A stretch of DNA of 64,000 nt, taken from the NCBI GenBank assembly GCA_964016885.1, contig OZ024743.1, positions 248,930,001 through 248,994,000 on the forward strand, in the 5' to 3' direction. Positions 15,944 through 39,940 of the stretch are shown here, piece by piece; position 1 is the first letter of the stretch, and each line of letters begins with the position of its first letter. Origin of the DNA: Eledone cirrhosa (taxonomy: Eukaryota). The notes under the pieces were generated by a model. That model was not told the DNA's origin. It saw only the letters and a list, made by a program, of their open reading frames with translations, and made no database searches. The position numbers and the translations under genes are program-made.

Positions 15944-18900
15944 CAATACAATTTGATATAAGAAACTTTTGTTGCATAATGTTACAAATACTAGCCCAAT
16001 AATAGAATAATTAATAATTTCAGTAAATTCCTTCAAATTCTTCATTAATCAGTTGAAATACATTGTCATTAGAAATATGGTAATGAAAGTGTTAAAGTAA
16101 CTTATATATATAAGGTTGAACAGGGATGTCCTAAACAATTATTTTCATGTTAATATTGATTTCATTCTTGTTTTGTTAAACTATTCATTTCTGTTGAAAT
16201 CATAGAAATTTATTTATATATTTTTAAAACTTCCTCTGATTTTAGTAATAATATTCCCATTGCAAGGAAGGAAATGGCCCGTCTCAATAGATACAGCACA
16301 CCTATGGGAAAACTCTATTGTATTCAGCGATTAATAGCATTTCTAATGCGTCCTCCGAAATCTCCTGCATCTACTCCTGAAGGTATTTCTTAATTTTGTT
16401 TAAAATCATGAAGCTTTAAATTCTTTTTTTTTTCTATCTCACAAAATGAGAGAAATAGTATCATATGCTGAATAGGAGGTACTCTGTGATCTCTTGATCT
16501 GCTAGAAATGTCAGCTAAATATCCATCAAATCATATCCTGCTTTCATAATTCTTTTGATACCAATCCATCCCAAACCAACTCTGGTTCAAAGAAACAAAA
16601 CCACTTATTTTATAAGGATCCTATTTAAATTAAAATTTTACAACATAATTTGATACAAGACCCTTTTGTAATATGAATACCATATTAAACCTTTCAGACC
16701 TGGGCCTCTATGTCTAACTTTACCCTCCACCTGGGCTCCTGATCAAAAAGATATATAGTTGCATATATAGCTCAAGAGTAATGATTGCAGTCAAACTAAT
16801 GGATAGAATCGACGCAAGGTGCAGTAAATGTGTCTACCTGCCCAGTATCTAGATTTACATAATCTCCACCACCCTATCAGTATCAGCTGTGCAAAGGCCA
16901 GACCAAATTTATTCATCTGAATCACTACTTTCCCCTCACCACTTTCATTAGTTTCATTGTCTGAATCACTCTTGCTATCTGCGTATGGGTAAACTTGTTG
17001 AAGTCTTTCTCACCTTTGTCCATAGAATTTGTTAACTGTAAAGAGTCTAGACCTTGTTCATTTACCAGACGAAATTCTGGGTTCATCACATGCTTGTTTC
17101 ATCACCAAAAAAATATTTTTTTCCGATTAAAAACAAAAGTAAGCAACAGCTATAGGGAACACCATTAACAATGAATTATAAACACATGTAACTACAAAGC
17201 TACAATGTGATCTGTTGTCTATTTTTAATATTTTATCTTTTTCTGTGTTGTTCATTACTGCTATAGCAGGAATATGGTGCAACAGGGTTAATGAAATAAT
17301 TGACAATTTTAATAAAGCCCCACCCCAAATTCTCCATTGATTAATTGTAATATAATGAATGTCATTAGAAGTATGATAATGAAAGGGTTAAAATGGGAAA
17401 AATACATATGCAACCTGGTAAATGTAGTCTTTGATGCACTATACTTTACCTTTGATCATAGGTTTGTTCAGTCAGGACTAACACGGGACTAAAAAAAAAT
17501 GACAGTCCCATGATTAAAATCTTTGTTTTTAACCTTATTGCTTCAGCTGTAAATCTGAGCACTGCTGCCTGCAACCCAGAGGAACAGATGACCAAATACT
17601 AGACATTGATGGTTCAATTTCATTTTGTGCTAGTTAGCATTAAAACCTCTGGTGGAGTTGGTTCCTAAACTGTTCTTTCACCAAATCGGGATGAGGGCAT
17701 TGCATTTCAGGAAGGAGCCCTATGAGGTGGAGTGGCTGATGCTATGGATATCACAAGTCATTCTCTGTGGTAATTCTTTCACCATATTGTCTGTGGAGCA
17801 CAGCTGAGATATTCTGTACAATTGAAGCTGTAGAGATTGCCCTCCTCCCATATTTTCTTGTCTTTTGTCCCTGTTGATGACATAATGATTGCCTTATTGT
17901 TGGTGTCATGATAAAATGCACCCAAGTACACTGCTAAATGTTAGTGTTGGTGCCACATTAAGGTACACCTGATACTTTCTGTAAAATGGTTATGCTGGTG
18001 CCCCAATAAAAGGCACCTAGTACACTCTGTAAAATGGTTGGCATCTAGCCATACAAATCTTGTCAAAAATGGAACATATGACCATATGAATAAGTCAGTC
18101 CTTTATCCTGCCTAGTCACAAACTGTGACAGCCCTTTCAACTCATGCTGACATGGAAAACTGATGTTTCAGATTTCTAAATAAAGGTTTTCTAATGTTAA
18201 CCATTTTTTATGTCAAACTTTTAAATCCCTTTGCTATGAGATCCTCATTGAAATACTTTTTAACTTTACTTTTGTTTTCCCTCTCTCTATAGGTGATAGT
18301 GAAGCTCTTTCAGATGTGATGACTTCCGATGACCTTTTACCATTACTCATTTTCATAATTGTTAAATCTGAAATTCCTAATTGGTATGTATGAGAATATT
18401 TTCCTCTGCTTGATACCATGAGAATATTTTCCTCTGCTTGATACCATGAGAATATTATCTTATGTTTAAATATATTTCAGGTGCTCCAACTTAGCCTATG
18501 TCCAACATTTCAATTTCTCCCGTGCATCAAACAAAGATGAATACAGGTTAGTTAAAACTATTTTTAACATTTTTACTTGTTAACCTTTTTGATACAAAAT
18601 AACAAAAAAACTGCCTGAAACTGTTCATGATTCTACAATACAAAGCTGTTATTTTAAAGTGTTTATATTTATTTAAAATTTTTCATCATACTTTTATAAA
18701 AAAAAACCTTTAAATTATGTTCCAAACACCAGCTTAATAATGAGAAATCCCTTGAAATTCTTTATTTTCAAAATCAATAGAAAATCATAGGCAGTGAATT
18801 TCATTAGAAATACGATAACAAAAGGGTTAATACAGGTACATCACTGATTTTCTAGCAATTGAAGATCTAACACTTCTTTAATCTGTACATAATTATGAGT

Positions 18901-21900: not shown

Positions 21901-22699
21901 ATTACATTAAAATGTCATCGATAGCTGCTAAAATACTGACTCTCTCACTGTTTTGTTGTTTAGCTCTCCATGTTGCTGCTGCTGCTGGCCATGCTGAGTT
22001 GATTGACATTTTGGTATACCACGGCGCCTCAGTTGATGCAACAGACTACATGGGATTAACTCCTATGCATCTTGCTTGTCGAAAAGGATTCCAGAGTGTA
22101 GCTGTATGTTTCTTTCTTCCTCTCAATTTTCTTTTTGTTGTCTAATGAATAAATACCATATTTTTCAAGATAAAACGCACACCAATGTGTAAAACACTTA
22201 AGATTTTTTTTAAAGAAAAATTAAACTTGACATTAAATTGTATTGTACCAGACTCAAAAGAACTAAAAAAAAAAATTATTTTGCATCACATAGAGCAATG
22301 ATTACCGTCATCATCATTTTACATTTGTGTTCCATGCTGGCATGGGTTGGACAGGTCATCACATTCTGTGATTAAACATCACATGGCCACATTTTGCTCA
22401 TTCATTCCAGTTTGACTTGATTTCTACAGCTAGAAGCACTTTCTAACACTAACCACTTTACACTATGTACTGGATGCATTTTATTGTGGCATCAGCACTG
22501 TCATGTCAGATCAGAGTGGGCTAGGTGCATTCTTTTTGAGGCACCAGCTCTCCCATGTGAGAGTGGGCTGGGTGCATTTTATTATGCCACCTGCTCTCCA
22601 TCACTGTGTGGGCTGTCTGCATTTTATTGCAGCGCTAGCACTGTCACTTTACTGAGTGGGTTTGTTGCATTTTATCTTGCTAGCAAAGGTTAGACAACA

Positions 22700-22739
<40 letters not shown>

Positions 22740-25700
22740 TCCCTCACCTCCTTGACAGAAAATGCATTTTAGAACATTTAAAACATTTTTTAAATCCACC
22801 CACTTTTATGCTATTTGTGGGACAGATAGAGATAAAATTCAATAGAATCATTATTATAGACATACTGCTTGAAAGAGTTTTTAAAGAGATTTTTCTATTT
22901 GTGATATTTCTTTGCAGTTACTTTTGGTTCATTTTGGGTGTAACTTGCATTTAACAGATAATGATGGCAACACACCTTTGCATTCTTGTGCTGCCAATGG
23001 ACATGAGGAAGTAAGTTGAACTATTTTTACCTATTAACATTCTGTAATGATTTTGTAGAAAATATAAAAAGCTGGTCTGTTAATTTAAATGTTTATAGTA
23101 GACAGTTTGTTGTGAAAATGCACAGTATTAGTGATGTCTTTCAATTTTAATGTGATACATAGTGCTGCTTTGTATTTTTCAGTGTCTTGCTAATGTGGAT
23201 TCATGTCACATTTTTCCATGTTTGCATGCATTGGACGAGATCTTATTCTAGCAGGTTTTCTATGGCTAGATTCTCTTCCTGTCAGCAACTCGGGCTATGG
23301 ATTGGCAGTGTTTTTAGAATACCTCTTGAAATTCTTTGTATTTTTTCTAGCTCTCTAACACTTCTGAGTTGAAATCTTCCATTTCATCCACAAAACCTAC
23401 CATAACCCTTTTGATACCAAACTGTCTGAAACTGTTTTAAAGTGTTTATATTTATCTAAAATAATTCTACAAGAACTATTGTATTCCAAACACCAGCTTA
23501 ATGAGAAAGTTAGTTATATTACTAAATTCCTTTAAATTCCTATTTTCAAAATAAATTGAAAATCATAGGTAGTAGTTTTGATTAAAAATATGGATACAAT
23601 TTTTGATATGCTGTATAACCTACTTATCTTTGGTGCTAATAACTTTAATGGTTTCGTTATTCTCTTATCCAGTGTGTGAAAGCTCTTGTTTTCAGTGACT
23701 GTGGGAATGGTAAATTGAATATTGATGCTATAAATGATGCTGGGGATACTGCATTGCATTTAGCTGCCAAATGGGGATATGGTAAGCACATATTTTTATA
23801 AGCTTTGTAATAATCATTAACATCACCATCGTTTCACCACTCATTTTTCGTCACAATTTTACAAGTATTTTCCATGGCTTAGATAGGTTGTCATGTTTCT
23901 GAGATTCGACAGGTCAAATAATCATGCTTTGTTCATATGTTCCATTTCGGCTTGGGATTTATGACTAAATGGCCTTATTAATGCCAACCACTTTACATAA
24001 TGTACTGAGTGCATTCTATCATGTAACCAGCACTATGCCTTTACAAGCTAGACTGGGTATTTTTTTTTTTCATGGTATCAGCACTACCACTTTACAGAGT
24101 ATACTGGGTATTTTATATTGTGGCACTAGCACTACCACTTCACATTACTAGGGCACTCATTGTGTATCGAATGTGTTTGTTATATAGCATATTACTCATC
24201 ATTTAAAAAATTGAAAAACATTTTTTTGTTATAGTATCTTCTCAGTATAATTGTTTTATATCCATTTTTTTTTTTTTCATGCTGGCATGGATTGGACAAG
24301 ACTTTTTGAAGCAGTGTTTCTATAGCTGGATACCTTTCATTATGTATAACAATTGGCAGTATCGGTAGAGGGTCGGACGCCATGCGTTCCAGCATAGTTA
24401 TGTCCCTTTACGATCTGGGTTCAAATCCCGTCGAGGTTAACTTTGCCTTTCATCCTTACGGGGTCGATAAAATAAAGTACCAGTAATGCACTGGGTAATT
24501 GCTGGCCTTGTGCAAAATGTAGAAACAATTATGTATAACAATTGTGTTTTTGTGCTGTTAAGACTAGACTGTCATATCTTCATTAGATTTTCTTACTGTT
24601 TCTAATATTTAGAAGATATACTTAATGTCTTTAATTTTGGAAGATAGTCTTAGTCTCTAATATTGGAAAGATAGTCTTAAAGTCTCTAATATTTTGTTGT
24701 GCTTATACTTTTTAGAGAACATTGTGGAAACTCTTTTAGAAAATAATGCTCGCACAGACATTCGTAACCGGAAAAAACAATTGCCAATGAATTGTGCACA
24801 CAATTCTCATATCCAACAATTATTGTTAAATACCCCTACAGATGAAATGAAACAGAGTTTTTATGCCAGTCGAGTAAGCAAAACTTGTAACTTTTTATGT
24901 AAATCTACTTTGTAACTAAACATCAATATCTATTTGCTAGTTAACAAGCACATTTTCTTTTCTTTTTTCATTTTTTTGTCTTTTCTTTCCTAAAAATATT
25001 CTCTCTTTACATGTTTCCCTCCCATTCCTTCCATACGAAGGACTAGCATCTAAAACATTAAATACATATTCTTTTCTCCTTTCAACTGATATACCAGTAT
25101 GACTGTTGTTGTAATGTGTTTTTCCTTGATTTAATTGACTTTTTATTGTATCATCATGTTTGTGTTCAGGGGATCAAAAAACTTCTGTAACAAAAAAATC
25201 AGTTACACATTGTAGTGTATTCAAATAATATAAGAAAGGCAAATTATCATTTAATTGGTGTTACTGACCTCTTAGGCAAGCCAAAGGCTGCATCTTGCTT
25301 ACATCCATTCCCATATTTTATGGAATGTGCTGGATGCATTTTATTGTGGCACTAGCACTAGGGAGGTTGTCTTGTCTTTGTCACAGTTGTTTAGCAAGTC
25401 TTCTATGATTGGAAGCCCTTCCTATTGTCCACCACTTTACAATGTGTACTGGGGACATTTTATTGTGTCACCAACATTAGAGAGGTTGTCATGCTCTTGA
25501 CATAACTGAAGAATCCATCTTATAGGGTGTACTGGGTGGATGTGTTTGATATAATATATGTGAAGTATCAATTGCTTATGTTTTCTAGTCTTTCAATTAT
25601 TATATAATGTTCATATTTATTTCCTTTACAGTATTCTCCAGAAAGTAAGACTGTGCCACTATACTCATCTTCTTTAGCTACATCCTCTGTTTCCACTTCA

Positions 25701-28700
25701 AACTTGTATGTTCAACAATCTCATTCTGCTGACAATTCTAAATATAAACAACAAGAGAAATTGTTCAAGGCTGTTAAAAATCATGATCTGCAGTTGGTAA
25801 GGCTTTTTTTCTTTTTACGTTTTAATATATATTTCATCATCATTTTATGTCGGCTTTCCACGTTGGCATAGATTGGACAGGCTCTCATAGTCTGAGACCA
25901 GACAGGTCAGATTGACCTTTTCTTGTTCGTGAATTCCATATTTGGCATGGTTTTTACGACTGAAGCCCTTCCTAATGCTGACCAACTTACAAGAGTGCAG
26001 GATTGCATCAGGAAGGGCTTCTTGACATAGAAAAACTACTTCAAAAAGTCTGGTCCAACCCATGCCAGCATTAGGTGGGTGTGAGGAACAGACATAAAAA
26101 CAATGATGATGAGGATGATTTATTATCTACAGAATATCTTAACTTTTTATGTTGTATATTATTACTGATAAAAGTTGCATTCCTATTTAGGTTCGATTCT
26201 ACCTCGGGTTGTCAAGTGATTCTGAAAATAAACTAAAGACACAGCAGAGTGTGGATTCTGCAATGGGTATTGAAAATCTCTGCCATCCACTTTGTCAGTG
26301 TGAAAAATGTGCTGTTTTACAACAGGTAAAGCCACATTTCTTTTAATGTGATAACTAGTCACTCTTTGATTTGTAGTTAAACATCAACTCAATCAAAGTT
26401 GTGTGCATGTGTGTTGAATAACATGCATGGAATATTTTTAACCCTTTTGATACCAAAATGCCTAAACCACCTCTGGTTCTATGATACTTAGCTGTTTATT
26501 TTGAAGTGTTTATATTTATTAAAAAAAAAAACTTTCTTAATCTTATTCAAGAACCTTTTATGTTCCATACACATGCTTAATAATGAGATGGATTGTTAGC
26601 TTTCTAAATTTCTCCAAATTCTTGATTATTTTCAAAATTATTTGAAAATCACAGGCAGTGTCTTTCACTAGAAACTTGGTAACAAAAGGGTTAAATTTCA
26701 TTTTAAACAGCACCACATTTAAAACGTTGTGACTAACTTTTACAACTAATGATATCTGGTTGAAAATTTGTCCTGAAAAAGATTCTTGTAATTAGCAACT
26801 ATTTGTCAGATATTTTACTGGGTTAATTATATTAAAAAAATACTTGATTGAATGAGAACATAGTTTTTCATGGGATATTGTTTTATTAGTTAAGCCAGGA
26901 ATCATAGTTGCCATTAGTTGATGGTATTCAAGGTTTAACTAGCTTCATACAAGGTAGGCACATTATATCTTTACCTTCTCAGGTTATCTGTGTAAAGACT
27001 TTTTCATTCTTATACCCTTACCACATGGTTCATTGGAAGCAGTCTGTGAATATTATTCCTTTAATGGCATAGTTATTTTGTGAGATTGGGTTAATATAGT
27101 ATAGTGGCTGAATTTGAGGTGGCTAGAAGTTTAGAAAACTGCTATTCCTATTGGCAACAAAGAGATTTCCTCAAAATAAGGTACTGCACATTGGGATGAT
27201 GCCTGAAACCATGTGGTTGTGAAGCAAACTTCTTAACCCCACAGCACATATTAGTGAAGAGGAAAGGTTAAAATAGGTAAAGGTTTTTTGCTGTGGGGGA
27301 GTATGGAGTCAAATGTCTTAGTAAATTTACTTGCTGCCAGCCCATACATATCCACTTTACCTTCCTTTCATTCTTCTCAAATGGACAAGTTTCAAAATGT
27401 TTGACACTATACACATCATCATCATCATCATCATCATAATCATCCTTTATACAGTTACCTTAATTTTCTTTATAAAATAAAAATAAAATTGCAACATTGA
27501 AGAAAAAATGCATAAATAGTAAATGAGTGAAAGCATTTGTAATACTTAGCAGACTGAGCATCACTTCTTCCTCTAGATTTAACAAGTAAAAAGAAATCTA
27601 ACAGTATTATAGTAAAATCTAGCAGCATATCTCCTTTTATTGTTTATTAATGCAATTCATTTCAAAGCAGCAATCTTCTCACTCTTCTTTTCTCTTAATC
27701 TTTTTCATTTTATCTCTTTTGTTTCTCTCATATGTAACCAATTTTACAATGTATGATACTTATTTTTTTATTTTTTTATCGAACCTAAGTTTGATATGTA
27801 GTACAACTACAATTCAGATACTAAAACTAATTATTTATCAAATATGACTACCTGTTCATTTATAACTACACAATATCAAATGTTTCAAATATTTCACTGT
27901 ATTTATTTCCTTTAGTTACAAAAAAGTTCCTTTTAAAAATGCTAATATATTCATCCACAGTTAGTAACTGATAACCTCAAAATCAGCATTTTACACCTGA
28001 CACGGGTTGAACAGATCGTTACAAGCCAAGTCAATAATACCAGGGTTAGTGTTTCCCTAAATGGATTGTAGAACCCTGTTTCCATCCATGTATTCCATTT
28101 TTAGCATGGTTTCTCTGACTGGAAGCCTTTCTTAATACCAACCACAGAATCTACTGGGTACATTTTATTGGGACATCAGCACTAGGAAGTTGTCAGGTCC
28201 TTCATGTGACTACAGAGTTCTCTCTACCCTATTGTTATCTCTTGAATGCCAACCACTTTACAGAGTGTACTGGGTGTATTTTATAGTTAAATCAGCTCAA
28301 GAGTTATGTTCATAGCATCACTGAAGAGGCCTCAGTCTCCAATGTTGCTGTTTAAATGTCATCCACTGTGTACTGGGTGTTTTATAGTAGAACCATCACT
28401 AGAAAGTAATTGCTATAAATAATTAAGGATTAAAACCTCATTACTCAGTATTGTATCCTCTATAGAAGAATTACACATCCATCTTCACTAAAATATTCCC
28501 AGTAGAATTTGTTTTTGATTATTTCTTGTTTTAAAATTTGTTTATGATTTTTTTTTAATTTTTGTTTGCAACTTATAGACCAGTGGTTCCCATCCTTTCC
28601 ACTAACAATAACTGTGATTTAAGTTACTTTTCCTATGTACCCCAACAATTTACAAATACATCTTCTACAATTATTCCTCCCTTAAAGCAATGTTTATATT

Positions 28701-31700
28701 TAGAGAATAAATACTCAATATGATCATCATTTAATCTTTGTTTTTTTTTTTTCCTGTCAGCAAGGTTTGGCTAGGTTGTCGCTGAACAAGTTAGTACTTA
28801 ATCATCGGAGCTACTGATCTCTCAGATGGGCCACGGGCTGCATCTTACTCACATACATTCCCACACTTAGAGATTGCAGTGGGTGCATTTTACTGTGGCA
28901 CCAGTTTTGAGAGGTTGTCATTTATTTGTCACAACTATCAAGTCCTCTCGACCCTTTGTTTGGAAAGTTTTCTACAGCCTTTCCTATCCTTAGTCACTAG
29001 TTGCTTTACAGTGTGTACTGGGTATGTTTTGTGTCAACAACATGTAAGTTGTTGTACCCTTTACACAACTAAAGAGCCTTCTTAACCTTTTTTCTGTATA
29101 GTTTCTACAGCTGGATGCCCATCAGCGACCTTAGATGGTGTACTGGGTGTGCCAGAACTAGGGAGGTTGTCAGTCAGTTACTTGACGAAAGAGTGTACTC
29201 ATCCTACCTATCCTCCAGTCTTCCCAGGTTCTCTGCAGTCAAGGCCCATGTCTCATAGCATTACAGCATTGCTGCTCACGGGCATTATTTTCAGTAGAAT
29301 TACTAGCTCCCTAAATCTCCTATCCAATTCTTACTCCAGACCACTACCTGCATTGCCGACTAGATCACCCAGGCAACAAAATCTGTCAACAACCACTAAG
29401 GAAGCATCTCATCTCCTGTGCATCCATAGATTACACTGTGTGCTCCTCATAGAACTTCTGCCAACCCTTCTTAGACATATCGAATAAGGCCACTTCCCTG
29501 GTAGCATTAGATTCCTGTCTTTCTTCACGCCTACGGAGACCTTAGTTTTCGCCAAGCTTATTTTCAAGTCCCTCAATTCCAGATTCCTCCTCCCTGTGTG
29601 GAATTTTGTCTCCAACTTTTTTATCGATTCAGCTATAACGACCAGATCATCAGCACATAAGAACTCCCATGGAGTGCTAGTCCCAAACTCATCTATCATG
29701 GCCTGAAAATGATAAACAGAAGTGAGCTATGGACTTCAAGTTCATCATTGCACCCACTGCCAACATGAGCCACTCACCCACACCTAACTCCCCTAGCAAC
29801 CATCAGATTACAGAACAGGGAACCTCATCAAAGGTCATCTCCAGATCCACAAATGCCAGTCACAAAAGTTTACGCGTCTGTGTGTGTGTGATGTACACAC
29901 ACACACTCACACACGCATGTATATATGTATTGCCATTATTCTATATCTGCCTTCTATGCTGGGAAGTGTTGGGCAGGCTGTCACAGTCCAAGACCAGACA
30001 TTTTGGGGTGTGTGCATATGTTTTTATCTAAATATTGGAAATTTTGAGCTTAGCTCAGACATCCCTTGTACTACCTTTGTGGAAACCCCTGGCACTACAA
30101 CCTTTATGGTCCTAGGATTGGAACCACTGTTATAGATATCGGTTTTATCTATTGTAGACATTTTAAGAAAGCTTGTTTGCTTTTTGTCATTTATTTACTT
30201 TATTTCAATGTTATTTGCGAATGCAAGCATGTATTTAAAGTAGATATATTACAGCACTAACAGAATTGCATTTTTACTTCAGTCTTTAAAAGAGCTGCTA
30301 TCTCAAGGATATGTAAGTAACATTGTGCAACTGTGGTTTAATGTTTTCATTACTAGGCAAATGCATGATACTTTCATTGCCTCTCCTTTTCCATATAAAT
30401 TGTTGTTTTTTTTTTTTGTTTTTTTTTTTGTTGTAATTATTGTAAACATCATTCACCCAAACTCCTAGTAGTTAAAGTACTTGACCAAATATTCTAGTTT
30501 TAATAACAATTAAAAAAACCCTCAACAGAAATAATGAATATATACATTTTAGTTTTTACTATCATCATCATCATCATCATTTAACATCTATTTACCTTGC
30601 TAGTAAGGGTTGAATGGGTCATCACAGACCAAGTCAGTACTTAATCAGAGCTACTGACTCCTCAAATGTGCCAAGATCCTGCATCTCACTGACTCTCTGG
30701 AGTGCCTGGTCATGGCACCAGCGCTAGGGAGATTGTCATGTCTTTGAGACAATTGAAGAGTCTTATTGATCCTTTGTTTGGCAAGCTTTCTATGGCTAGA
30801 TTACCTTCTTATCACCAACCACTTTAAAGAGTGTATTGGGTGCAGTTTTTGTGGTATCAACAGTAGAGAGGTTTTTGTGCCCTTGATACAACTGAAGAGA
30901 TGTTTATCTTGAAAATTGCAAATGTTAAACTATTTTTCATTATGGGAGATTTTCAGTTTAACATTAAGAATTTTAGAAAAATTATTCATTAAACAGATTG
31001 GCAGAATTTAATTCTATTATCATATTCAATCATCATCATCATCATCATTTTACATTTGCTTTCAATGCTGGCATGGGTTGGATGTGTTATCACAGTCCGA
31101 GATTAGATGGGTCGGAGGATCACATCTTACTTATACATTCCATTTTTGACGTGGTTTCTACAGTTGGATGCCAACCTCCCTCTAACTATTTTACAGTGTG
31201 TAATGAGTGCATTGTATTGTGGCACCAGCATCATCACTTTACAGTGTGTATTAGGTACCTTTTATCATGACTCCAGATTTACCACTTTACAAAGTGTATT
31301 CAGTACTATTTATCATGGCACCATCATTACCACTTTACGGCATGTATTGGATAGATTTTATTGTGAAAAGTGTATTGGGTCCATTTTATCATAGTGCCAA
31401 TACCAGTGAGTCTGCCTTGAATCTATTGAAACTAAGGGGGTTAGAGGTACTCACTATTGGACATTGTCTCTGTTCATTCAAGCCAATCTGTTTTATAATT
31501 AAAATAGCCCATCTTACAAATTTGCTCTAATAGATTTTAGTCATTTTGTACTTCATTGTCTCAAAGTAATCTTTAAAAAAAAATATTTTTATATAATCTT
31601 TTGTCAGTTGTTGAAATAGGGTTTTGTCTTTGGTCAAGGCACTTTGTTACTGCTCTCCAGTAAAAGTGCTTCTCTTAACTGCTTTCAATACCTAACATTT

Positions 31701-34700
31701 TACCTATAAACTGACATTGATGAAAATGGTTACGATATCCCATTCTGTAAAACACCAAGATGAATGCACTATATAAAACTGCCAGCATGAGTGACTACAC
31801 ATTCTTACATGTTGCACTTGTATTTTTCACCATGTTCTCTTGCATATGATTTCCCCCTTCAATATTTATTTACCTCCAAGAAGAAATACTAACTATGTGT
31901 TGGGATTCGGGAACAAACAAGGAGTTTCTCTCAACAAATTAACTGCTCTAGATTCTATGTATTTAATATGTTAAACATTTCTACTCCAAATTGACTGATT
32001 TCATATATATTTCAGAGAAAGTGCAAAAATTCTTACCTATTCAGTTTTTAGAATAGGCACTGTATCCCTGCATGTTGTAAGAGGTGACTAAAAGGGTTGG
32101 CATCAGGAAAGGGATCCGGCTGTAAAACATTGTCTCAAAACATCCTGTTCAAGCCATGCCAGCATGGAAAAGTGGGCATAAAATAAGGATGAGGTAGTTC
32201 ATCTGTGCTACCTATCAGTGATTTACTTGTTTTTATTTTATTTTTTATTCACACTAATGTCAATACTTATCACTAGCTAGTATATCTCAGCTAACCAAAC
32301 TGAATATGACAAGTTGAGCAGATTGTCAACCTTATTTCACTTAGATTTACATTATACTTCAATCAACAAGTGCCACAGTTTTACATTTCCTCAGGTTAAG
32401 ATTGAACACACAAACTTTAGTGCTATTACCCTAGGGTTCACCACTCTTACCTATGATGCCACTCTGTACTGCTGTTAGCTTAAAAACCTTTGTCTTTGGT
32501 TTTGTGCATTGTTGTTAAATACATGTTAATTTATTTTGTCCATTGTATACCAATGTCAGTTTAATACATTGTTCATCTTACCAATAATGTATTGTGTACT
32601 GCTGTGATCCAGTGTAATGTGTATATTTCATTGATGATAACTATACTTTATGTAAACTGTCATTTTTCTGTAAGTTGATATCTAACCATCCACAATTATA
32701 CACCTATTTTAAATTGTTGTATTAACTTCAAATATTCAGTTGAGGTTTAGACACTATATTTGTAATTCTGTTGGATTCATTTGAATATATTATGATGATA
32801 GTATTAGGGGTGGGTAGTGGACAAGTTAATATTATGTTTTAAAAGAAAAATAGAACACTAGAGGTTTAAACCTTCTAATGAAATACACTCTAATTAATGA
32901 AGAATTTTGAAAAATTTACTAAAATGATTTCATTACCATCATAATGATTTAACATATAGTTCTTAAATAAAGTGTTGTTAGAAGATTTCTTCTTCGCCCA
33001 CTTATTCCTGAGAGGGTCGTGGGGGCAAACACTCCTTCCAGTGGGTCCTGTCAGAAGCAACCATTTCCAACTGGTCTGGCTGGATCCCCAAGCGAGACTA
33101 GTTGAGCTTATGGATGTTATCCAACCATCTTGCTCGAGGTCTACTCCTGCTGGTTGGTTTTGCTTGTAAAATCTGTCCAGTGATTATTTGTCGAGACATT
33201 CTAACCACATGCCCATAATATTGGAGCTGTGGAAACTCCGCTATTCAGGTGTGGTAAGAAACATTTTGGAAGATTTAATTTTTTTAAATTGGAGCTTTTG
33301 TAAATGAGTGGATTTGTTTCATAGAACCAGAGCCAGTTTGGGCTGGATTGGTAACAAAAGGGTTAAAAAATCATTGATCTTTATGTAATCATATTTCTAA
33401 TAAAATACACTCCGTGTGTTTCAATTAATTTTGAAAATAATTAAGAATCTATTGGGATTTACTAAAATAACTAGCTTACTTATTAAGTTTGTGTTTAAAA
33501 CATAACTTAATAAAAGGTTCTTATATACAATTTTAATGGAATGGTTTAATTTAAAAACAGTTAAAAACAAACCATTTTGTATCATAGAATCAAGTGTTCT
33601 TGTGCAATTTGGTATTAAACGGTTTAATAATTCCAGATCACAGCTTTCCATAGTTTTGTTTTTGAGAAAACTGTGTACACTTACTACTAAACTAATAATT
33701 ATTAAGATTACCTGTTGAAAATGTCAATTTGAATTGACTAAGCGGCCAACAAATACACAATATGCAAATCAGACAGCCATATCAGTCAAACCCTAGTTTG
33801 CGTTTGATATAAATAGCATTTTGACTATAGCTCTTTTTGTGGTTAGAAGAATAGGGGCACTTGTCTTTTAATGAACAATTAACTGTGAAACATAATAGGG
33901 CAATCTCTTATGTTCTTATGTATATGAGAATAACAATGTTTTTCTTATTTGTTTAAGTTTTCAGAGTACTTTATAAACTGTAGACCTGCATTAAATTTAT
34001 CATCAATTTTCTAATATATGCTGTGTTGTGTATAAATATTTATTTAATCAACTTTTCTATCAAACTCCCCTATAAAACTTGACTTGAATAATAAGAATTA
34101 AAATATCTTTAATTTATGTTTCTAGCATTTTAAAATTTATGAAATAATGCTTCAAACAAATGTTCACATGAAATATTATGCCCCTATTCAGGGATCATTT
34201 TTATATTTGGCATAACCCATCTAACTTAACTTTTATCAACCTGTAATGATTTAGCAGAATTTAAAAAAAATAAACACAAGTCTGTTAATTCAAATGTTTA
34301 TAGTATCTATAGTATTGGCCAAATTAAAAATTGAAGTCTTTAATACTGCAAATTTTCATATGATGCAGTCATAGTGCTGTTTTGTACTTTTCACAAAAGT
34401 CTTGTTAATGTGGTTTCATGCAGTACAGGATTTTCATAGTTACTAATGTGTGCCACAGAAAGCATTTGATTACATTTTAAAAAGAAAATAGAAAGTAATC
34501 ACTTGATTTATGAAATGTATTTTAAAACCTCACACTCCATAAAAACATGGAAAAGTAGATACAGACAGTAAATTGAATAAATTCATTTAGAATTAAAATA
34601 ATTCAATTTCCATTTTCAAATGCTTGCATCAGTTGGACAATCCTCCTCCAACCCAGTATTTTACCACTTGTGGTCTGTTGCCATGTCTTTCTCTTCCACA

Positions 34701-37700
34701 AGTTCCTTCCATTTTGATTATTTGGCACTTTTTTGCCCAACTGTCATCTCAGATATGCATCACATATCCATATAAGAGAGAGATATTAAAAGATAAAAAA
34801 GGAGAATACATCAGGTAGAGGAATCATCATTGTCAACAGTTTATCATCCACTTACCACGAGTTCTCCTTCTCTTCTTTGCCCACTTATTCCTGAGGGGTT
34901 GTGGCAGCAGGTCCTGTCAGAAGCAACCCTTCAACTGATCTGGCTGGATCCCCAAGCGTGACCAGTCAAGTCCATGGATGTTATCCAACCATCTTGCTCG
35001 GGGTCTACCCCTGGATCTCCTACCTGTTGGTTTTGCCCATAAAATCTGTCCAGCAATTCTTTCCTGAGACATTCTAACCACTTGCCCATAGTATCACATG
35101 AGTTGATACAGTAATATTACTTGTAAAACAAATGTAAGAAATGTCTTTAGCTAAGAATAAAAAAGCATGGAGAAAGCCATGATATTACCTCATCACCATT
35201 TTATGTCTGCTTTCCACAGGTTGGGATGACATTATTTTGTTCATATGGTCCATACTTGGCATGGTTTCTGGACACTCTTCTTAACAGTAACCACCTTGTG
35301 TGTGTGTTTTGTTGCACCACTACCACTTTACAGAGCGAAGTGGGTGGCACCAGCTCTAGAGAGGTTGTCATATGCTCGTCTACACTGAAGAGTCCTCTCA
35401 GTCCCCATATTGTCTCTGATCAATCACAAAATGCCGAAGCTTCTGATCTCTCATGGATATTACAACTGTCAGTTCTCCCCTCTCCCCTGAAGTCAGTAGA
35501 GCTGGTCTCTTATCAATGGATAGTTTTCATGAAAGTTCTGCTGTCATCATAGCCATTTAATGTCTATTTTCCATGCTTGCATGAGTTAGACAGGTTGTCA
35601 TATTTGAAATTAGATAGGTCATGTGACCATGTCTTGCTCATACAAACTATTTTTAGCATTGTTTCTATGGCTAGATGCTCTTGAAAAGGCTGTACTTTGT
35701 GTACTGGGAGCATTTTATTGTGGTACCAATACTACCACCTTACAGGGTGTTCTGTGTGCTTTTTGTCATGGCAACAGCACTACCACCTTACAGGTCTGTG
35801 TGCTTTTTTTTTTTTTTGCACCAGCACTACCACCTTAGAGGGGTGGACTGGACTTTTTGTCATGGCACCAGCACTACCATCTTACAGTGTTCTATGTGCT
35901 TTTTGTCATGGTACCACCACTACCACTTTACAGGGTGTTGTGTGCTTTTTGTCATGGCACTAGCACTACTTCATTGACTTTATTTATTGAACAGGCAAGA
36001 AGGATAAATAAATGTATAATGTATACGGAAATTTCTTTATTCCATATCTAATTTTATGTATCTTGGTATTTAAACATTTATTCAACTATTGTTCTTGAGT
36101 TTGAATAAAGTGTTACATATCTAAGAGAAACTAGGATTTGTAGGTATAATAGTCAGGTGTTATAATGTCATTAATCAAGTCATTTTAACTCTTATAGCTA
36201 AGGTGAGAAATGTATAGATATGCAACCATGTAAACTTGCATTGGGTTCAGTAAAAACCTGTTTTTTATGTACATTAAAAAGATATTACTGGTACATTACA
36301 GCACTTTATTTTTAAATCATTGTCCATTGAGATAGATGGAGTTCTTATTTGCATAAAATTACCATATATACTAGTGTATAAGTCATACTTCCATTTTTTC
36401 ATTTGTGATGTACCATATATTTTAAAATGGGGGTTTGTAAGGCCAGTAGATGAGTTTCATCCTGGTTTTTAAGGTATAATTTCATGGAAAAAGCTGTGAC
36501 TTAGATACAAGTATATATGGTATTTACTTGAAGAAACATATTGTATTTTTATATCTTTGTTTTCTGTATTGTAGAAGTTAACCAAGAAACAGAGTGACAT
36601 CGATATTAACAAACGCAATTGTCAAGGTCTCACAGCTCTTCATTTATCAGTCCAAGGGAACAGTTTAGAATTAGCCAAAACTATGTTAGAAGCAGGAGCA
36701 CACATCAACTGCTTATCTGAGGATGGTTTCACACCTCTTCACGTAGCTTGTCTGAATGAAGATAGTGAGGTAAAGAATTTGTTTCTATAACACCACCCTT
36801 ATCATCTTTTTTAGTCTTTTTTTTTGTCTTCGATAATTACCATCATCATCATCATCATTTAATGTCCATTTTTCTACAGTAGCATGGGTTAGATGAGTTG
36901 TTCCGTTGTAGGACAAGCCAGATCAAATGACTGTCTTGCTCATACAGAACTATTTCTGGCTTGGTTTCAACGGTTGGATGCCCTTTCTAATGCCAGCCAC
37001 ATTTACAGTGTGGACTGGGTGCTTTTTATTGTGGCACCCTTTTTCTACTTCCTTCCACATTCATTTCCATCACTCCTTTCATCAAGTTACATTCCTTAAC
37101 ACTTGAATTAACCATCTCATTCTATTTCTTTTCACAACATTCATCACTGGCTCTATTCCTCTAACTCGATCACTTTTATCCTTCCTCAACATATGACCCA
37201 ACCATCTCATTCTATTTCTCTTCACAATATTCATCACTGGTTTTATTCCCATCATCCTTTGCAATTTCTTGATTGTATTCAGTTTAGAATAGGTACACCA
37301 TATCTCTGCACATCATAAAAGGTTACTAAAAGAGTTGGCACTGGGAAAGGTGTCAGGTTGCTGTAAAAACATGCCTCAAAAAGGACATGATGAGCATAAT
37401 AATATATTCTTGTAATACATCTGCTTTTATTATTTTTATTTATTATCATTATTATTTCAGATGGTTGAGTTACTGTTATCATACGGAGCCAAGGTCAACT
37501 TAGCTGACCATTGTGGAAATAGTCCTTTACATTATTGTTGCCAAAGAGCAAATATTCCTTTAGCTACTCTCTTGCTTGAGGTAAACATTTCCTTTTGATT
37601 TACAACTTATTCACTGAAAATTTCTTTATTTCAAAAGTGTGTGTATGTGTGTTTTATTTGCCTACTGTTTATTACAGCTAAATCCATGCTGTAACACCAC

Positions 37701-39940
37701 TGTTAAGTTTCTAATTTTATTTGTTTCCTATAGACTAGTGTTTCTGAAGGGAGTTGTGGCAATATTTAAGTGTGCCAGCTGGGGAGGCATTTTATCATGG
37801 CACCAGGTTATGTCTTTGACACAACTAAAGTCCTAACTACTTTAGAGTGCACTAGGTGTATTGTATCATGTCACAAGCAGTAGAAAAGTTGTGCATTTGA
37901 CACAAGTGAAAAGTCCTCCCAAGATATTTTATTTTTATGAGGGAGAAAAGGACAGGCCTCTGAAACTGGTGAGATATTGAGGAATGTATCCTTAAACTGG
38001 AGACCTGTTCCAAATGCTTGCAACAGGGAATTCTGCTAAAGGTACCCAAAGGTCAGGGGGTAGTGTTAAACCAAGTGACAGATTAAGTTTACAACCTGTT
38101 ACTGTGAGTATTTTAGTAGTCTGGCTTTTATTGATCACATTTTAGTTAATTACCATATTTGATGGTTTATAAGACACACCTCAATTTTGGCAAGCATTTA
38201 AAAAAAGTAATGTTTTAACTGCAAATGTCAGGTGAAGTTTGTGTGTTGTATTTTTTTATTATCATTCTACATCATAATTCTAGTTGTAATATTTTAGTAC
38301 ATTTTTAAAACATAAGGAAGTGTGAAAATAAATTTACTTTATTCTCTACATCGTATTTAAAAAAATATTTAAGAGCAACTGCAGCACTAGAACTCCACTA
38401 GCCAGTAACCCAAACTGATCCTTGACCTTATAAGACACAGGGTGATTTACTGGGACATTTTTTTTTTTTAAAAAAGTGCAGCTTATAAGCTGTTCAAATA
38501 TGGTAGCTTTAAATTGGTTTCAAAATATTTGAAAAATAAGTAATTTTTTCTTAAAATGATATCTTTTAATTGTTTATTCCTCTAACCCTATTTTTCTAGC
38601 ATGGTGCTCGAGTAAACCAACGTAATCATATTGGAAGCACATGTTTACATGAGGCAGTAGGTACCAACAACGCAAATTTAGTGGCCTTGCTACTTGAGGC
38701 TGGTGCTAATATCAGTCTAGTGAATCTCTTGAATCTCTCTCCTATACATTTAGCAGAGGTATGTACAGTATTGTACATGGAAATAATTTTTTGTTAGTTT
38801 TGCTATTGTATATTCTTTAACCCTTTTATTACCATATTTCTAATGAAAGACACTGGTTTAAAATTTGTAAAGAATTAGTCGTATAACTTTCTGACTAAGC
38901 TGGTGTTTGGAACATAATTTAAAAAAGGTTTTTACATAGAATTATGATGGAAGGTTTTTAGATGAATATATAACTTTAAAATAAAGTTATGTAGTGAAGA
39001 ACCAAGAGTGGTTTTAAGCATTTTGGTATGAAAGGGGTTAAGTTATTCACAAATATTCTATTATTAGATTAACATCGACATCATCATTTTGAGCCTGTTT
39101 TTCCATGCAGGCGTAGGTTGCATGAGTATTCATGGTCAATCAGTTCTTCAGTTACTGCCCTTCTAGAAGGGTCAGAGACCACATCTTGTTTGTACATTCC
39201 ATTTCTAGCATGGTTTCTACAACTGAATGACTTTTCAATAACAAGAGTGTATTCTAATGTGGCATTTGCAAGACTTGTATTTAACTAAAGAAATATTCTC
39301 AAATAGGGATAGCTAAGGTGAGGAAATTCTGAAAAGCTATTCAAATATTTTTTTTAAATGTTGAAGCATGTCCTTTGCTAATGATTATATAAACCTTCAT
39401 CATCGCTACTTAACGACTATTTTCCATGCTTGCATGGGTTAGATGGGCTGTCATGTTTGAAGCCAGTCATGTCAGGTTACCACATCTTGCTCATACTTGG
39501 CTTGGTTTTCTATGGCTGGATGCCCTTCCTAACACCAAGCACCTTACTGTGTGTACTGGAAGCTTTTTGTGACACCACCACTACCACCTTACAGGGTGCT
39601 TTTGCTGTGGTACCATTACAATCAACTTACAGGGTTTCAGTTATAAATACTCTTCCTATTCTGCACCTACATTAGATGGTGTTAGGAAGGGCATCCAGCT
39701 GTAAAACCATATAAAAAATTGAAACCTACAAGTTATATGTGATCCTTTGCCCTATCTAAGAGGGAAGTTACGCTGAATAAGAATTCTCACCACAACTCAT
39801 TCCACCAATACCAGTATGATGACATTTTAAACCCATATTAGCATCTTGGTTTTTCACTTTTCTAGAATCAAGGTATGAAACATTTATTGACAAGTTTCCT
39901 GAACACTAGAGAACCACAAGGACCAGAAGCAATTTTTTAA
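757..39940 (+). CDS. ANKRD27: Ankyrin repeat domain-containing protein 27 / VARP (VPS9 Rab GEF plus ankyrin repeats); spliced gene, 23 coding exons in window, 5' end outside window
   Basis: Hand-spliced exons join through GT-AG introns with consistent phases into one 918-aa frame. Recognisable VARP motifs occur in order: ILFEETFYN, YTKSMQLLLRD, SDDLLPLLIFIIVKSEIPNW (VPS9), CHPLCSCDKC, ankyrin block 1, CHPLCQCEKC, ankyrin block 2. Confidence 0.95.
1805..2226 (+). repeat. 48-nt tandem array (about 5.5 units, 1805..2075) within an RTE-3'UTR/SINE-type repeat
   Basis: gcacccagccca recurs at 1811, 1859, 1907, 1955, 2003 and 2051; followed by ggttggcgttaggaagagcatccagccgtag and a (GAT)n tail. Confidence 0.9.
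2577..2727 (+). CDS. ANKRD27: ANKRD27 exon
   Basis: ttacag|...|gttagt; TVYISNGQIHLQDNFTNKLKINILFEETFYNAADESYRVLCVEQIFNSDQ; phase 0/1. Confidence 0.9.
3231..3311 (+). CDS. ANKRD27: ANKRD27 exon
   Basis: atttag|...|gtaaga; KSESTQQFYRTPTTYKDCIELLWGDS; phase 1/1. Confidence 0.8.
4510..4604 (+). CDS. ANKRD27: ANKRD27 exon
   Basis: tttcag|...|gtaagt; NKKTRENLDKVLQQFIYVYERLDVYNFRSIV; phase 1/0. Confidence 0.85.
4860..5782 (+). mobile_element. Two degenerate tandem RTE 3' fragments
   Basis: Decayed similarity to the RTE C-terminal coding region; ends ...aaaacgatgatga. Confidence 0.7.
5903..6240 (-). mobile_element. RTE 3' fragment of a subfamily whose ORF runs directly into the tail
   Basis: RERRLRWYGHVMRM..GRPQKTW..WRDAV, then cggatgtaaaa(tga)n. 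Confidence 0.88.
6499..6558 (+). CDS. ANKRD27: ANKRD27 exon
   Basis: ccttag|...|gtaagt; DVASAQYTKSMQLLLRDPTL; phase 0/0. Confidence 0.9.
6731..10404 (+). mobile_element. Near full-length RTE-clade LINE in an ANKRD27 intron
   Basis: Long ORF with APE endonuclease and RT, RTE C-terminus RLRWYGHV..GRPKMTW, a 3' UTR and a (GAT)n tail; left boundary approximate. Confidence 0.92.
6988..10101 (+). pseudogene. RTE ORF (endonuclease, reverse transcriptase, PHD-like finger) broken by one in-frame TGA at 9769-9771
   Basis: APE motifs (VGTINV, VQETRW, GDFNGH, QLDFIL, SQHSLV) and RT motifs (YRGIKL, QFGF, FVDLEKAFD, GVHQGSVLSP, YADDL). The ORFs 6988..9771 and 9775..10101 are in the same frame. Confidence 0.9.
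10935..11215. mobile_element. hAT-type (Charlie-like) MITE
   Basis: Perfect 15-bp TIR caggggtccccaacc; 8-bp TSD ctctaaga (10927-10934, 11216-11223); subterminal ccggcccg(c/t)g motifs. Confidence 0.93.
11945..12395 (-). mobile_element. Diverged RTE 3' end (ORF terminus, repeat-containing 3' UTR and tail)
   Basis: (CAT)n tail, ggatgcccttcctaacaccaacc block; the minus-strand end translates DRDLWRYSVTEKTR. Confidence 0.8.
12637..12693 (+). CDS. ANKRD27: ANKRD27 exon
   Basis: ttacag|...|gttagt; KSRARHNPVYMDCLKVAAE; phase 0/0. Confidence 0.85.
14209..14351 (+). CDS. ANKRD27: ANKRD27 exon (start of VPS9 region)
   Basis: tttcag|...|gtaaga; TYVLHQLHKSLFGALTLCMASDDAEINKCTRNLKELQCHHLDIRESF; phase 0/2. 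Confidence 0.9.
14395..14770 (+). mobile_element. Degenerate RTE 3' fragment
   Basis: Decayed EASML.WMC / RRLHWY.HV coding similarity. Confidence 0.65.
16246..16382 (+). CDS. ANKRD27: ANKRD27 exon (VPS9)
   Basis: ttttag|...|gtattt; NNIPIARKEMARLNRYSTPMGKLYCIQRLIAFLMRPPKSPASTPE; phase 2/1. Confidence 0.9.
18293..18383 (+). CDS. ANKRD27: ANKRD27 exon (VPS9 catalytic DDLL motif)
   Basis: ctatag|...|gtatgt; DSEALSDVMTSDDLLPLLIFIIVKSEIPN; phase 1/2. Confidence 0.92.
18481..18546 (+). CDS. ANKRD27: ANKRD27 exon (VPS9)
   Basis: tttcag|...|gttagt; CSNLAYVQHFNFSRASNKDEY; phase 2/2. Confidence 0.9.
19452..19539 (+). CDS. ANKRD27: ANKRD27 exon (VPS9 end)
   Basis: ttttag|...|gtatta; YYLASIEAALQQIRSGKVKIIPSTSSNIQ; phase 2/0. 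Confidence 0.9.
20384..20497 (+). CDS. ANKRD27: ANKRD27 exon (linker)
   Basis: ttttag|...|gtaagt; WFDSSVDVVIDDTTDAVPSPIFESNKTPELSPTDIFFQ; phase 0/0. Confidence 0.85.
21010..21199 (+). CDS. ANKRD27: ANKRD27 exon (zinc fingernail 1)
   Basis: tttcag|...|gtaacg; HIEAGDEDAVKVFL...LCHPLCSCDKCETLM...TPSTRDDRGYT; phase 0/1. Confidence 0.95.
21381..21693 (-). mobile_element. CR1 3' fragment, internally deleted
   Basis: Matches the CR1 3' end and part of the ORF end at 42299..42875. Confidence 0.8.
21964..22103 (+). CDS. ANKRD27: ANKRD27 exon (ankyrin repeats)
   Basis: tttag|...|gtatgt; LHVAAAAGHAELIDILVYHGASVDATDYMGLTPMHLACRKGFQSVA; phase 1/0. Confidence 0.95.
22918..23010 (+). CDS. ANKRD27: ANKRD27 exon (ankyrin)
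   Basis: ttgcag|...|gtaagt; LLLVHFGCNLHLTDNDGNTPLHSCAANGHEE; phase 0/0. Confidence 0.93.
23673..23781 (+). CDS. ANKRD27: ANKRD27 exon (ankyrin)
   Basis: atccag|...|gtaagc; CVKALVFSDCGNGKLNIDAINDAGDTALHLAAKWGY; phase 0/1. Confidence 0.93.
24356..24527 (+). mobile_element. Same SINE family
   Basis: Same A/B boxes and core; 17-bp direct repeat attatgtataacaattg (24339-24355, 24528-24544). Confidence 0.85.
24716..24873 (+). CDS. ANKRD27: ANKRD27 exon (ankyrin)
   Basis: ttttag|...|gtaagc; NIVETLLENNARTDIRNRKKQLPMNCAHNSHIQQLLLNTPTDEMKQSFYASR; phase 1/0. Confidence 0.92.
25632..25796 (+). CDS. ANKRD27: ANKRD27 exon (Ser-rich linker)
   Basis: ttacag|...|gtaagg; YSPESKTVPLYSSSLATSS...QEKLFKAVKNHDLQL; phase 0/0. 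Confidence 0.9.
26191..26325 (+). CDS. ANKRD27: ANKRD27 exon (zinc fingernail 2)
   Basis: atttag|...|gtaaag; VRFYLGLSSDSENKLKTQQSVDSAMGIENLCHPLCQCEKCAVLQQ; phase 0/0. Confidence 0.95.
26438..26694. mobile_element. piggyBac-like MITE; related copies near 15838, 18580, 23403, 38817, 54415 and 55353
   Basis: TTAA flanks with TIR cccttttgataccaa / ttggtaacaaaaggg. Confidence 0.82.
29160..29860 (-). mobile_element. Degenerate RTE RT fragment
   Basis: PWEFLCADDLVVIAES..GKWPYSICLRRVGRSS aligns with the RTE ORF. Confidence 0.8.
30283..30312 (+). CDS. ANKRD27: Candidate alternative 30-nt microexon of ANKRD27 (SLKELLSQGY)
   Basis: CACTAAC branch point at 30255-30261, tttttacttcag acceptor, gtaagt donor; 30 nt, open in phase 0, matching the flanking phase-0 intron. 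Confidence 0.6.
32985..33230 (-). mobile_element. RTE-type 3' fragment with (GAA)n tail; a second copy lies at about 34870..35095
   Basis: The minus strand translates YYGHVVRM..RPRARWLDNI..ASDRTHWK; the two copies align. Confidence 0.7.
35550..35970 (-). repeat. Related repeat with a diverged tandem array of about 42-nt units
   Basis: About six copies of ttttgtcatggcaccagcactaccaccttacag...gtgc. Confidence 0.75.
36575..36769 (+). CDS. ANKRD27: ANKRD27 exon (ankyrin block 2)
   Basis: ttgtag|...|gtaaag; KLTKKQSDIDINKRNCQGLTALHLSVQGNSLELAKTMLEAGAHINCLSEDGFTPLHVACLNEDSE; phase 0/0. Confidence 0.93.
37082..37270 (-). mobile_element. RTE-like fragment with an internal tandem duplication
   Basis: VKRNRMRWL(GH) is present twice in the ORF 37082..37264. 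Confidence 0.6.
37461..37580 (+). CDS. ANKRD27: ANKRD27 exon (ankyrin)
   Basis: tttcag|...|gtaaac; MVELLLSYGAKVNLADHCGNSPLHYCCQRANIPLATLLLE; phase 0/0. Confidence 0.93.
38600..38758 (+). CDS. ANKRD27: ANKRD27 exon (ankyrin)
   Basis: ttctag|...|gtatgt; HGARVNQRNHIGSTCLHEAVGTNNANLVALLLEAGANISLVNLLNLSPIHLAE; phase 0/0. Confidence 0.93.
39866..39940 (+). CDS. ANKRD27: ANKRD27 last coding exon (stop TAA at 39938-39940; exon probably continues to a donor at 39966)
   Basis: ttctag|NQGMKHLLTSFLNTREPQGPEAIF*; cag|gttagt 25 nt after the stop. Confidence 0.75.
   Translation, partial: NQGMKHLLTSFLNTREPQGPEAIF

What the first reader, a model, noticed from the sequence alone, without database searches (positions are those of the whole stretch)
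30255..30367. Candidate regulated 30-nt microexon hidden in the 10-kb ANKRD27 intron
Seen: a consensus branch point CACTAAC (30255-30261), a TGC at 30267 just ahead of the pyrimidine tract tttttacttcAG, a 30-nt open phase-0 exon (SLKELLSQGY), a perfect GTAAGT donor, and TGCATG about 50 nt downstream. It would insert 10 aa in frame between zinc fingernail 2 and ankyrin block 2. Established: UGC motifs upstream of the 3' splice site mark SRRM3/4 (eMIC)-dependent neural microexons, and downstream UGCAUG is an Rbfox enhancer. In mammalian VARP this region lies next to the VAMP7- and VPS29-binding surfaces. Inference: a neural-specific VARP isoform that tunes retromer/SNARE binding. I do not recall an equivalent insert in human ANKRD27.
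Basis: partly seen in the sequence, partly recalled or inferred. Interest (0 to 1): 0.75.

Follow-up and report, generated by a model that had tools for sequence, protein, structure and literature searches.

The report
Octopus VARP 30-base optional exon
A 30-base optional exon adds ten amino acids to a loop of the octopus endosome-sorting protein VARP and is already in public gene models of other octopus species; its flanking signals make it likely, but untested, that it is switched on in neurons.

Summary
Every motif is at the stated place, and the exon is real but not hidden. RefSeq models of Octopus bimaculoides and O. sinensis ANKRD27 each have a 962-aa isoform with SLKELLSQGY and a 952-aa isoform without it. 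The full motif set arose in 2 of 1000 shuffled introns and nowhere in 780 kb of background. An O. vulgaris read-through model shows the downstream intron, including the TGCATG position, is kept. The genome encodes an eMIC domain. Tissue specificity is untested: no RNA run was available. Against the eMIC reading: the AG-exclusion zone is short (17 nt), and TGC alone is common at this gene's other acceptors. The insert lies inside ankyrin block 2, four residues past the VPS29-binding core, in a loop that varies from 19 to 38 residues among orthologues, so a binding effect is speculative. The peptide was found only in octopus proteins. The scan noted similar octopus microexons in other genes on other DNA, not this one. 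Verdict: a likely neural microexon of a known class.

The parts
757..39940 (+). Host gene ANKRD27/VARP (VPS9 domain, two Zn-fingernail/ankyrin blocks): 24 coding exons in the window; the first coding exon lies about 1 kb upstream of the window
   Evidence: tblastn map; spliced ORF of 928 aa, 870/928 identical to O. bimaculoides X1; first exon in L025; Pfam VPS9 and Ank on the O. bimaculoides isoforms
26191..26325 (+). Upstream exon, 135 nt, phase 0/0, encodes Zn-fingernail 2 (CHPLCQCEKC)
   Evidence: matches human VARP chains 6TL0_B and 4B93_B
26404..26429 (+). Two TGCATG (26404-09, 26424-29) at the start of the upstream intron; role unknown
30255..30261 (+). Branch-point consensus CACTAAC (inferred branch A at 30260, -23), flanked by extra AGs at 30253-54 and 30262-63
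30267..30269 (+). TGC at -16, candidate eMIC (SRRM2/3/4) element
   Evidence: the motif's role is from PMC10551640 and PMC8797185, not tested here
30271..30282 (+). Short pyrimidine tract and acceptor AG
   Evidence: pyrimidine fraction 0.67 in -20..-3
30283..30312 (+). 30-nt cassette exon, phase 0/0, SLKELLSQGY
   Evidence: identical 10 aa in XP_014780065.1 and XP_029633527.1, absent from the X2 isoforms
30313..30403 (+). Donor GTAAGT and a downstream intron stretch kept in O. vulgaris
   Evidence: read-through model CAI9720011.1 fits with at least 5 substitutions and a 2-nt difference in a T run over 31 codons; no substitution needed in the first 16 codons
30362..30367 (+). TGCATG at +50, candidate Rbfox element
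   Evidence: Cys-Met at this position in the O. vulgaris read-through fixes TGYATG there
36575..36769 (+). Downstream exon, 195 nt, phase 0/0: end of the loop and the next ankyrin repeats of block 2

Best explanation
This is a 30-nt in-frame cassette exon of octopus ANKRD27/VARP, annotated as optional in two other octopus species, that is likely skipped by default and likely included in neurons through the eMIC form of SRRM2/3/4, with Rbfox likely helping from the downstream TGCATG. Shown: the signals, the open frame, paired isoform models with and without the 10 aa in two Octopus species, and an eMIC domain in this genome. Inferred: the short exon with its weak, AG-crowded acceptor is skipped unless eMIC acts at the UGC between branch point and pyrimidine tract. 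Inclusion would lengthen the C-terminal arm of the Zn-fingernail-2 loop from 24 to 34 residues and is predicted (low confidence) to extend an amphipathic helix. That would change the reach or orientation of the fingernail rather than the VPS29 or VAMP7 contact residues. Odds by step: real alternative exon 0.95; neural-enriched 0.6; eMIC-dependent 0.5; measurable effect on VARP binding or traffic 0.25.
For: Isoform pairs 962/952 aa differing only by these 10 aa in O. bimaculoides and O. sinensis. Exon 10/10 identical while the gene averages 93.8% and the next exon 55/65. Motif set in 2 of 1000 shuffles and 0 in 779.6 kb; it is the only one of the gene's 24 exons with TGC, CTAAY and downstream TGCATG together except none other (table). 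Downstream intron kept in O. vulgaris, TGYATG included; TGCATG occurs in only 3.3% of 144-nt background windows. eMIC family PF15230 over its cut-off (29.3 bits, cut-off 27) in the own genome, with a second exon 21 kb on that fits the rest of the profile weakly. Fly eMIC exons have median length 31 nt, UGC near the 3' splice site and CUAAY branch points (PMC8797185 section 10). Alternative splicing is highest in neural tissue of O. vulgaris (PMC9699675 passage). Helix 763-779 in the model; hydrophobic moment of residues 766-783 is 0.42 with the insert, 0.06 without.
Against: No tissue data at all. AG-exclusion zone 17 nt, second shortest of 24 acceptors, whereas eMIC exons have long ones; no UCUC-rich long tract; flanking introns of 4.0 and 6.3 kb, unlike the short introns of fly eMIC exons. 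TGC in -25..-5 at 4 of the 23 other acceptors and TGCATG within 200 nt after 3 of 23, so single motifs are weak; the upstream exon has both. 10/10 identity is not significant alone at 94% gene identity (0.94^10 is about 0.5). No neutral-divergence yardstick for the intron conservation, which rests on one protein-level read-through. Loop length is 19-38 residues in 32 resolvable of 43 two-fingernail VARPs, 7 of the 32 at 30 or more, so a longer loop is tolerated. pLDDT at the insert is about 50 or below in both models; the moment's permutation p is 0.07. An Rbfox gene was not shown in this genome.
Confidence: 0.55

Rival explanations
1. A real cassette exon included at some level in most tissues, without tissue control; the 10 aa are tolerated in a variable loop and do little.
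For: Loop length varies 19-38 residues among orthologues; flanks of the human fingernails are unstructured (PMC7539009); strong donor and consensus branch point could give factor-independent inclusion; short AG-exclusion zone is unlike eMIC exons; peptide found only in octopus proteins.
Against: Joint presence of TGC, CTAAC and TGCATG is rare by chance; frame, peptide and about 90 nt of downstream intron are kept between species whose VARP differs by 6%.
Confidence: 0.25
2. A tissue-regulated exon driven mainly by Rbfox or another UG-binding factor, included in muscle or in muscle and nerve, independent of eMIC.
For: TGCATG at +50 with its position kept in O. vulgaris, a GCATG at 30227 and two TGCATG at 26404 and 26424; eMIC-type long AG-exclusion zone and UCUC tract missing. 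That Rbfox also acts in muscle is recalled, from no call.
Against: TGC sits at -16 between branch point and tract, as described for eMIC targets; in the 20-species comparison non-neural splicing conservation was nearly negligible except vertebrate muscle (bioRxiv 10.64898/2026.09.05.749416 passage).
Confidence: 0.15
3. A cryptic or decayed exon: annotated from rare reads in Octopus species and not used in this species.
For: No transcript of this species was seen; the one Argonauta model and two of three O. vulgaris models skip it, and the third runs on into the intron.
Against: Clean inclusion models in two species; splice sites, frame and peptide intact here.
Confidence: 0.05

Closest known systems
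Octopus bimaculoides ANKRD27 isoform X1 (XP_014780065.1) and O. sinensis isoform X1 (XP_029633527.1, XP_036357217.1)
   Same: Same 10-aa insert at the same junction; X2 isoforms lack exactly these residues.
   Different: These are computed gene models without a tissue label in what I saw; the window is from another octopod (93.6-93.8% identity).
eMIC (SRRM3/4, SRRM234)-dependent neural microexons (PMC8797185; review PMC10551640)
   Same: Length near the fly median of 31 nt, frame-preserving, UGC near the 3' splice site, CUAAY branch point, host in membrane traffic; eMIC domain present in the genome.
   Different: Short AG-exclusion zone, short tract without UCUC, multi-kb introns; neural inclusion and eMIC dependence untested; no paper found on a cephalopod case.
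Human VARP Zn-fingernail 2 / ANKRD2 (PDB 6TL0, 4B93; PMC7539009, PMC4059916)
   Same: CHPLCxCxxC motif in the loop between the first two repeats of ankyrin block 2; the upstream exon aligns to both chains.
   Different: The exon junction maps to human 725/726, past the ordered residues 710-721; none of the vertebrate orthologues fetched has an insert there. Human isoforms were not examined.

Membership tests
Alternative cassette microexon | Short internal exon with canonical AG/GT, frame-preserving | tested here: met
   30 nt, phase 0/0, no stop. It exceeds the strict 3-27 nt definition and fits the wider one of up to 51 nt (both cut-offs recalled).
Alternative cassette microexon | Both inclusion and skipping transcripts exist | tested here: met
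   Paired gene models in two Octopus species; indirect, and not shown for the window's species.
Alternative cassette microexon | Conserved across species | tested here: met
   Peptide in 3 Octopus species plus the window; in 3 of 237 proteins fetched, all Octopus. Outside Octopus only single or skipping isoforms were seen.
eMIC/SRRM-dependent neural microexon | Higher inclusion in neurons than elsewhere | not testable with these tools
   No RNA run was offered; the relevant PSI tables were not readable.
eMIC/SRRM-dependent neural microexon | Inclusion lost without the eMIC domain | not testable with these tools
   Needs a knock-down or a minigene.
eMIC/SRRM-dependent neural microexon | UGC close to the 3' splice site | tested here: met
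   TGC at -16; also at 4 of 23 other acceptors of the gene, one being part of TGCAG.
eMIC/SRRM-dependent neural microexon | Strong CUAAY branch point | tested here: met
   CTAAC at -26; 7 of 23 other acceptors have CTAAY within 60 nt.
eMIC/SRRM-dependent neural microexon | Long AG-exclusion zone and long UC-rich tract (enriched trait, PMC8797185 section 10) | tested here: not met
   17 nt, second shortest of 24; pyrimidine fraction 0.67. The nearest extra AG lies 2 nt after the branch A, probably too close to compete (recalled rule).
eMIC/SRRM-dependent neural microexon | eMIC-bearing SRRM2/3/4 encoded in the genome | tested here: met
   PF15230 at 29.3 bits over cut-off 27, in two exons on contig C22; its neural expression not tested.
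Rbfox-enhanced exon | (U)GCAUG in the proximal downstream intron, conserved | tested here: met
   TGCATG at +50; TGYATG in O. vulgaris by back-translation, the Y not resolved.
Rbfox-enhanced exon | Rbfox present and required | tested here: inconclusive
   Fox-1_C family found no match in the own genome, which does not show absence; the RRM was not searched.
ANKRD27/VARP (host gene) | VPS9 domain, two CHPLCxCxxC motifs, two ankyrin blocks | tested here: met

The most novel reading that the evidence does not exclude
An octopod-specific, neuron-switched microexon converts the flexible tether of VARP's second Zn-fingernail into a longer amphipathic helix (it contains LxxLL), which re-spaces the two fingernails on the retromer arch or adds a binding surface, and so couples the eMIC programme to retromer/VAMP7 recycling in octopus neurons: a new splice target gained independently in the cephalopod brain.
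Probability: 0.15. Interest if true: 0.55.

Novelty: new member of a known kind. Interest (0 to 1): 0.25.

Why it matters
If neural, it is a concrete, lineage-restricted target of the bilaterian microexon programme in a cephalopod, a group for which my searches found no paper on microexons, and it sits four residues from a structurally solved retromer-binding motif, so it is cheap to test. But the exon is already in RefSeq, recurrent gain of neural exons in trafficking genes is a described pattern (bioRxiv 10.64898/2026.09.05.749416 passages), and the loop is length-variable. A specialist would not be surprised.

Tried and rejected
RNA evidence: the run search listed no RNA holder; the three DNA-type runs were laid only to check the sequence. 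Neither bears on expression. Published PSI or isoform tables: the O. vulgaris long-read annotation of PMC9699675 was too large to read; the supplements of bioRxiv 10.64898/2026.09.05.749416, which covers O. bimaculoides tissues, are closed and may already hold this exon's tissue class; the tables of PMC8797185 were listed, not opened. Torres-Mendez 2019 and Schafer 2012 were not held; a recalled PMC id opened an unrelated paper; PMC11817943 gave nothing usable. Idea that the peptide is a duplicated or decoy ankyrin outer helix: rejected; score against a profile of 73 VARP repeats was not above permutations (p 0.37) or genomic 10-mers (21%), and the best nucleotide match in the gene's own coding sequence was 17/30. 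Origin from a recent repeat: one match in the genome and low depth argue against; the tool warns that this does not prove rarity. Search for short transcript fragments with the insert found 2 distant proteins without it. Fox-1_C search was blank and uninformative. No complex prediction was run: VARP-VPS29 and VARP-VAMP7 are solved pairs and one job cannot compare isoforms. No fold search was run. Other cephalopod genomes are not held, so no DNA alignment across species was possible.

Full report
Observation. The host is ANKRD27/VARP on the + strand. Mapping an O. sinensis protein gave 24 coding exons between 757 and 39940, which splice to a 928-aa open frame, 870 of 928 residues identical to O. 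bimaculoides isoform X1, 869 of 928 to O. sinensis X1 and 833 of 918 to Argonauta. The first coding exon lies just upstream of the window. The stretch 30200-30400 has one match in the 3.0-Gb own genome. Contigs of three DNA-type runs, one sample and possibly the source, cover the exon and list no difference in 30200-30394.

Chance. I scanned for YAG + 3n exon of 3-51 nt without stop + GTRAG (A), pyrimidine fraction >=0.6 (B), TGC at -22..-7 (C), CTRAY at -45..-15 (D) and TGCATG within 150 nt downstream (E). The window has 66 A sites on both strands, 14 AB and one ABCDE, this exon. In 1000 dinucleotide shuffles of the 10.2-kb intron, 84% held an AB site, 4.1% ABCD and 0.2% ABCDE. In 39 other 10-kb stretches (779,600 strand-bases; 1 of 40 requested did not exist) there were 130 AB, 3 ABCD and 0 ABCDE. 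The criteria were fitted to the site, so these figures flatter it. Single motifs are weak: of the 23 other exons, 4 have TGC at -25..-5, 7 have CTAAY within 60 nt and 3 have TGCATG within 200 nt downstream; none has all three.

It is a real, already annotated exon. The cluster of octopod VARP proteins has 8 members. O. bimaculoides X1 (XP_014780065.1, 962 aa) and O. sinensis X1 (XP_029633527.1, XP_036357217.1, 962 aa) differ from their X2 isoforms (952 aa) only by residues 771-780, SLKELLSQGY. That such paired RefSeq models rest on transcript alignments is my own knowledge, not a call. One of three O. vulgaris models (CAI9720011.1) includes the exon and reads on into the intron. Back-translating its tail against the window needs no substitution in the first 16 codons, at least 5 substitutions in 31 codons and a 2-nt difference in a T run, and it has Cys-Met where the window has TGCATG; the last three residues fit poorly. 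This suggests constraint on about 90 nt of intron, but I have no neutral rate to compare, and 10/10 peptide identity is expected about half the time at 94% identity. The single Argonauta model and 5 of 5 proteins of the cuttlefish cluster (one named Acanthosepion, four unnamed) lack the insert; as skipping isoforms they cannot show that the exon is absent from those genomes. Among all 237 proteins fetched, the peptide core occurs in three, all Octopus.

Regulation. For fly eMIC-dependent exons PMC8797185 (section 10 read; passages) reports a median of 31 nt, UGC near the 3' splice site, CUAAY branch points, long AG-exclusion zones, long UCUC-rich tracts and short introns. PMC10551640 (passages) describes SRRM3/4 acting at UGC upstream of microexons, a single bilaterian SRRM234 gene with a neural eMIC isoform, and Rbfox binding (U)GCAUG. 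This exon meets length, UGC and branch point. It fails the AG-exclusion zone (17 nt, second shortest of 24) and the UC-rich tract, and has introns of 3,957 and 6,262 nt. The own genome encodes an eMIC domain: PF15230 scored 29.3 bits (cut-off 27) on one exon, with a weak match to the last 12 profile positions 21 kb downstream on the same strand, each within an SR-rich frame. A Fox-1_C search was blank and uninformative. PMC9699675 (passages) found splicing highest in neural tissue of O. vulgaris and does not mention microexons in its main text. Nothing here measures tissue inclusion. I put neural enrichment at 0.6 and eMIC dependence at 0.5.

Protein effect. The upstream exon aligns to human VARP in 6TL0_B and 4B93_B; counting from His712 the junction falls at human 725/726. 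In the VPS29 complex the ordered part is residues 710-721, and the linkers are described as unstructured (PMC7539009 passages and section 6). Residues 692-730 separate the first two repeats of the second ankyrin block, and the VAMP7-binding mutations are M684D/Y687S (PMC4059916 passages). So the insert is in the C-terminal arm of the fingernail loop, four residues past the binding core and about 40 residues from the VAMP7 residues; it replaces no known contact. Two AlphaFold2 models of the 962-aa isoform (14 and 31 sequences; mean pLDDT 56 and 76) put it in a helix, 763-777 or 763-779, at pLDDT about 50 or below; the skipping isoform was not modelled. The hydrophobic moment of residues 766-783 is 0.42 with and 0.06 without the insert, permutation p 0.07 for the 10-mer. 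The distance from fingernail 2 to the next ankyrin motif is 22-26 in most of 81 proteins of the first set, which is redundant and has 16 pattern misses, but 19-38 in the 32 resolvable of 43 two-fingernail proteins of the wider set, 7 of them 30 or more (11 unresolved by my pattern). A 34-residue arm is thus within the natural range, which argues for tolerance and weakens the binding-tuning claim. The distance after fingernail 1 is 23-24 in 75 of 79. The resemblance to an ankyrin outer helix was tested and rejected.

Literature. 'ANKRD27' + 'microexon' and 'microexon' + 'octopus' + 'SRRM' found no paper; 'microexons' + 'cephalopod' found one, with the word in its reference list. The library lacks most subscription papers.

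Earlier notes of this scan. None near this place or like this sequence. Two unreviewed notes describe comparable microexons in octopus kinesin light chain and arfaptin on other genomes; I did not test them and they are not independent support.

Verdict. A genuine 30-nt alternative exon, already in RefSeq for two Octopus species and extended here to another octopod. It works most likely as a neural, eMIC-type microexon (0.55), but membership is not established: the two functional criteria were untestable and one enriched sequence trait is not met. Its effect on VARP is unknown and may be small. New member of a known kind; interest 0.25.

Noticed in passing
window 18481-18546: This 66-nt VPS9-domain exon is missing from all three O. 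vulgaris models but present in the other octopod proteins: a second alternative exon or an annotation miss. It follows a 97-nt intron.
   Followed up: no
window 36572-36577: The downstream acceptor is a tandem TAG-AAG; use of the second AG would drop one lysine right after the microexon.
   Followed up: no
window 26176-26429: The fingernail-2 exon itself has TGC at -15, the shortest AG-exclusion zone of the gene (14 nt) and two TGCATG at +79 and +99; it may be regulated too, or show how common the motifs are.
   Followed up: partly
window 6985-10098 (+): LINE-type element in an ANKRD27 intron: a 928-aa frame with endonuclease, reverse transcriptase and a PHD-finger match (residues 776-819, over cut-off) after the RT, then a stop and a 109-aa continuation.
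   Followed up: partly
window 42577-44259 (-) and 60327-61034 (+): Further LINE reverse-transcriptase fragments (RVT_1 for the first; the second resembles it by eye).
   Followed up: partly
window 61650-63671 (+): Uninterrupted 674-aa frame with FG-GAP repeats and a DEX1 beta-sandwich: a DEX1-like gene with one very large coding exon.
   Followed up: partly
window 39866-39940: Octopod VARP ends about 10 residues after ankyrin block 2 (952 aa), whereas chiton and bivalve orthologues have long tails (1126-1409 aa).
   Followed up: no
L002 and L003 (G000 contig C22): The two exons that encode the eMIC-like domain lie 21 kb apart; whether they form a neural alternative last-exon isoform as in flies was not examined.
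   Followed up: partly
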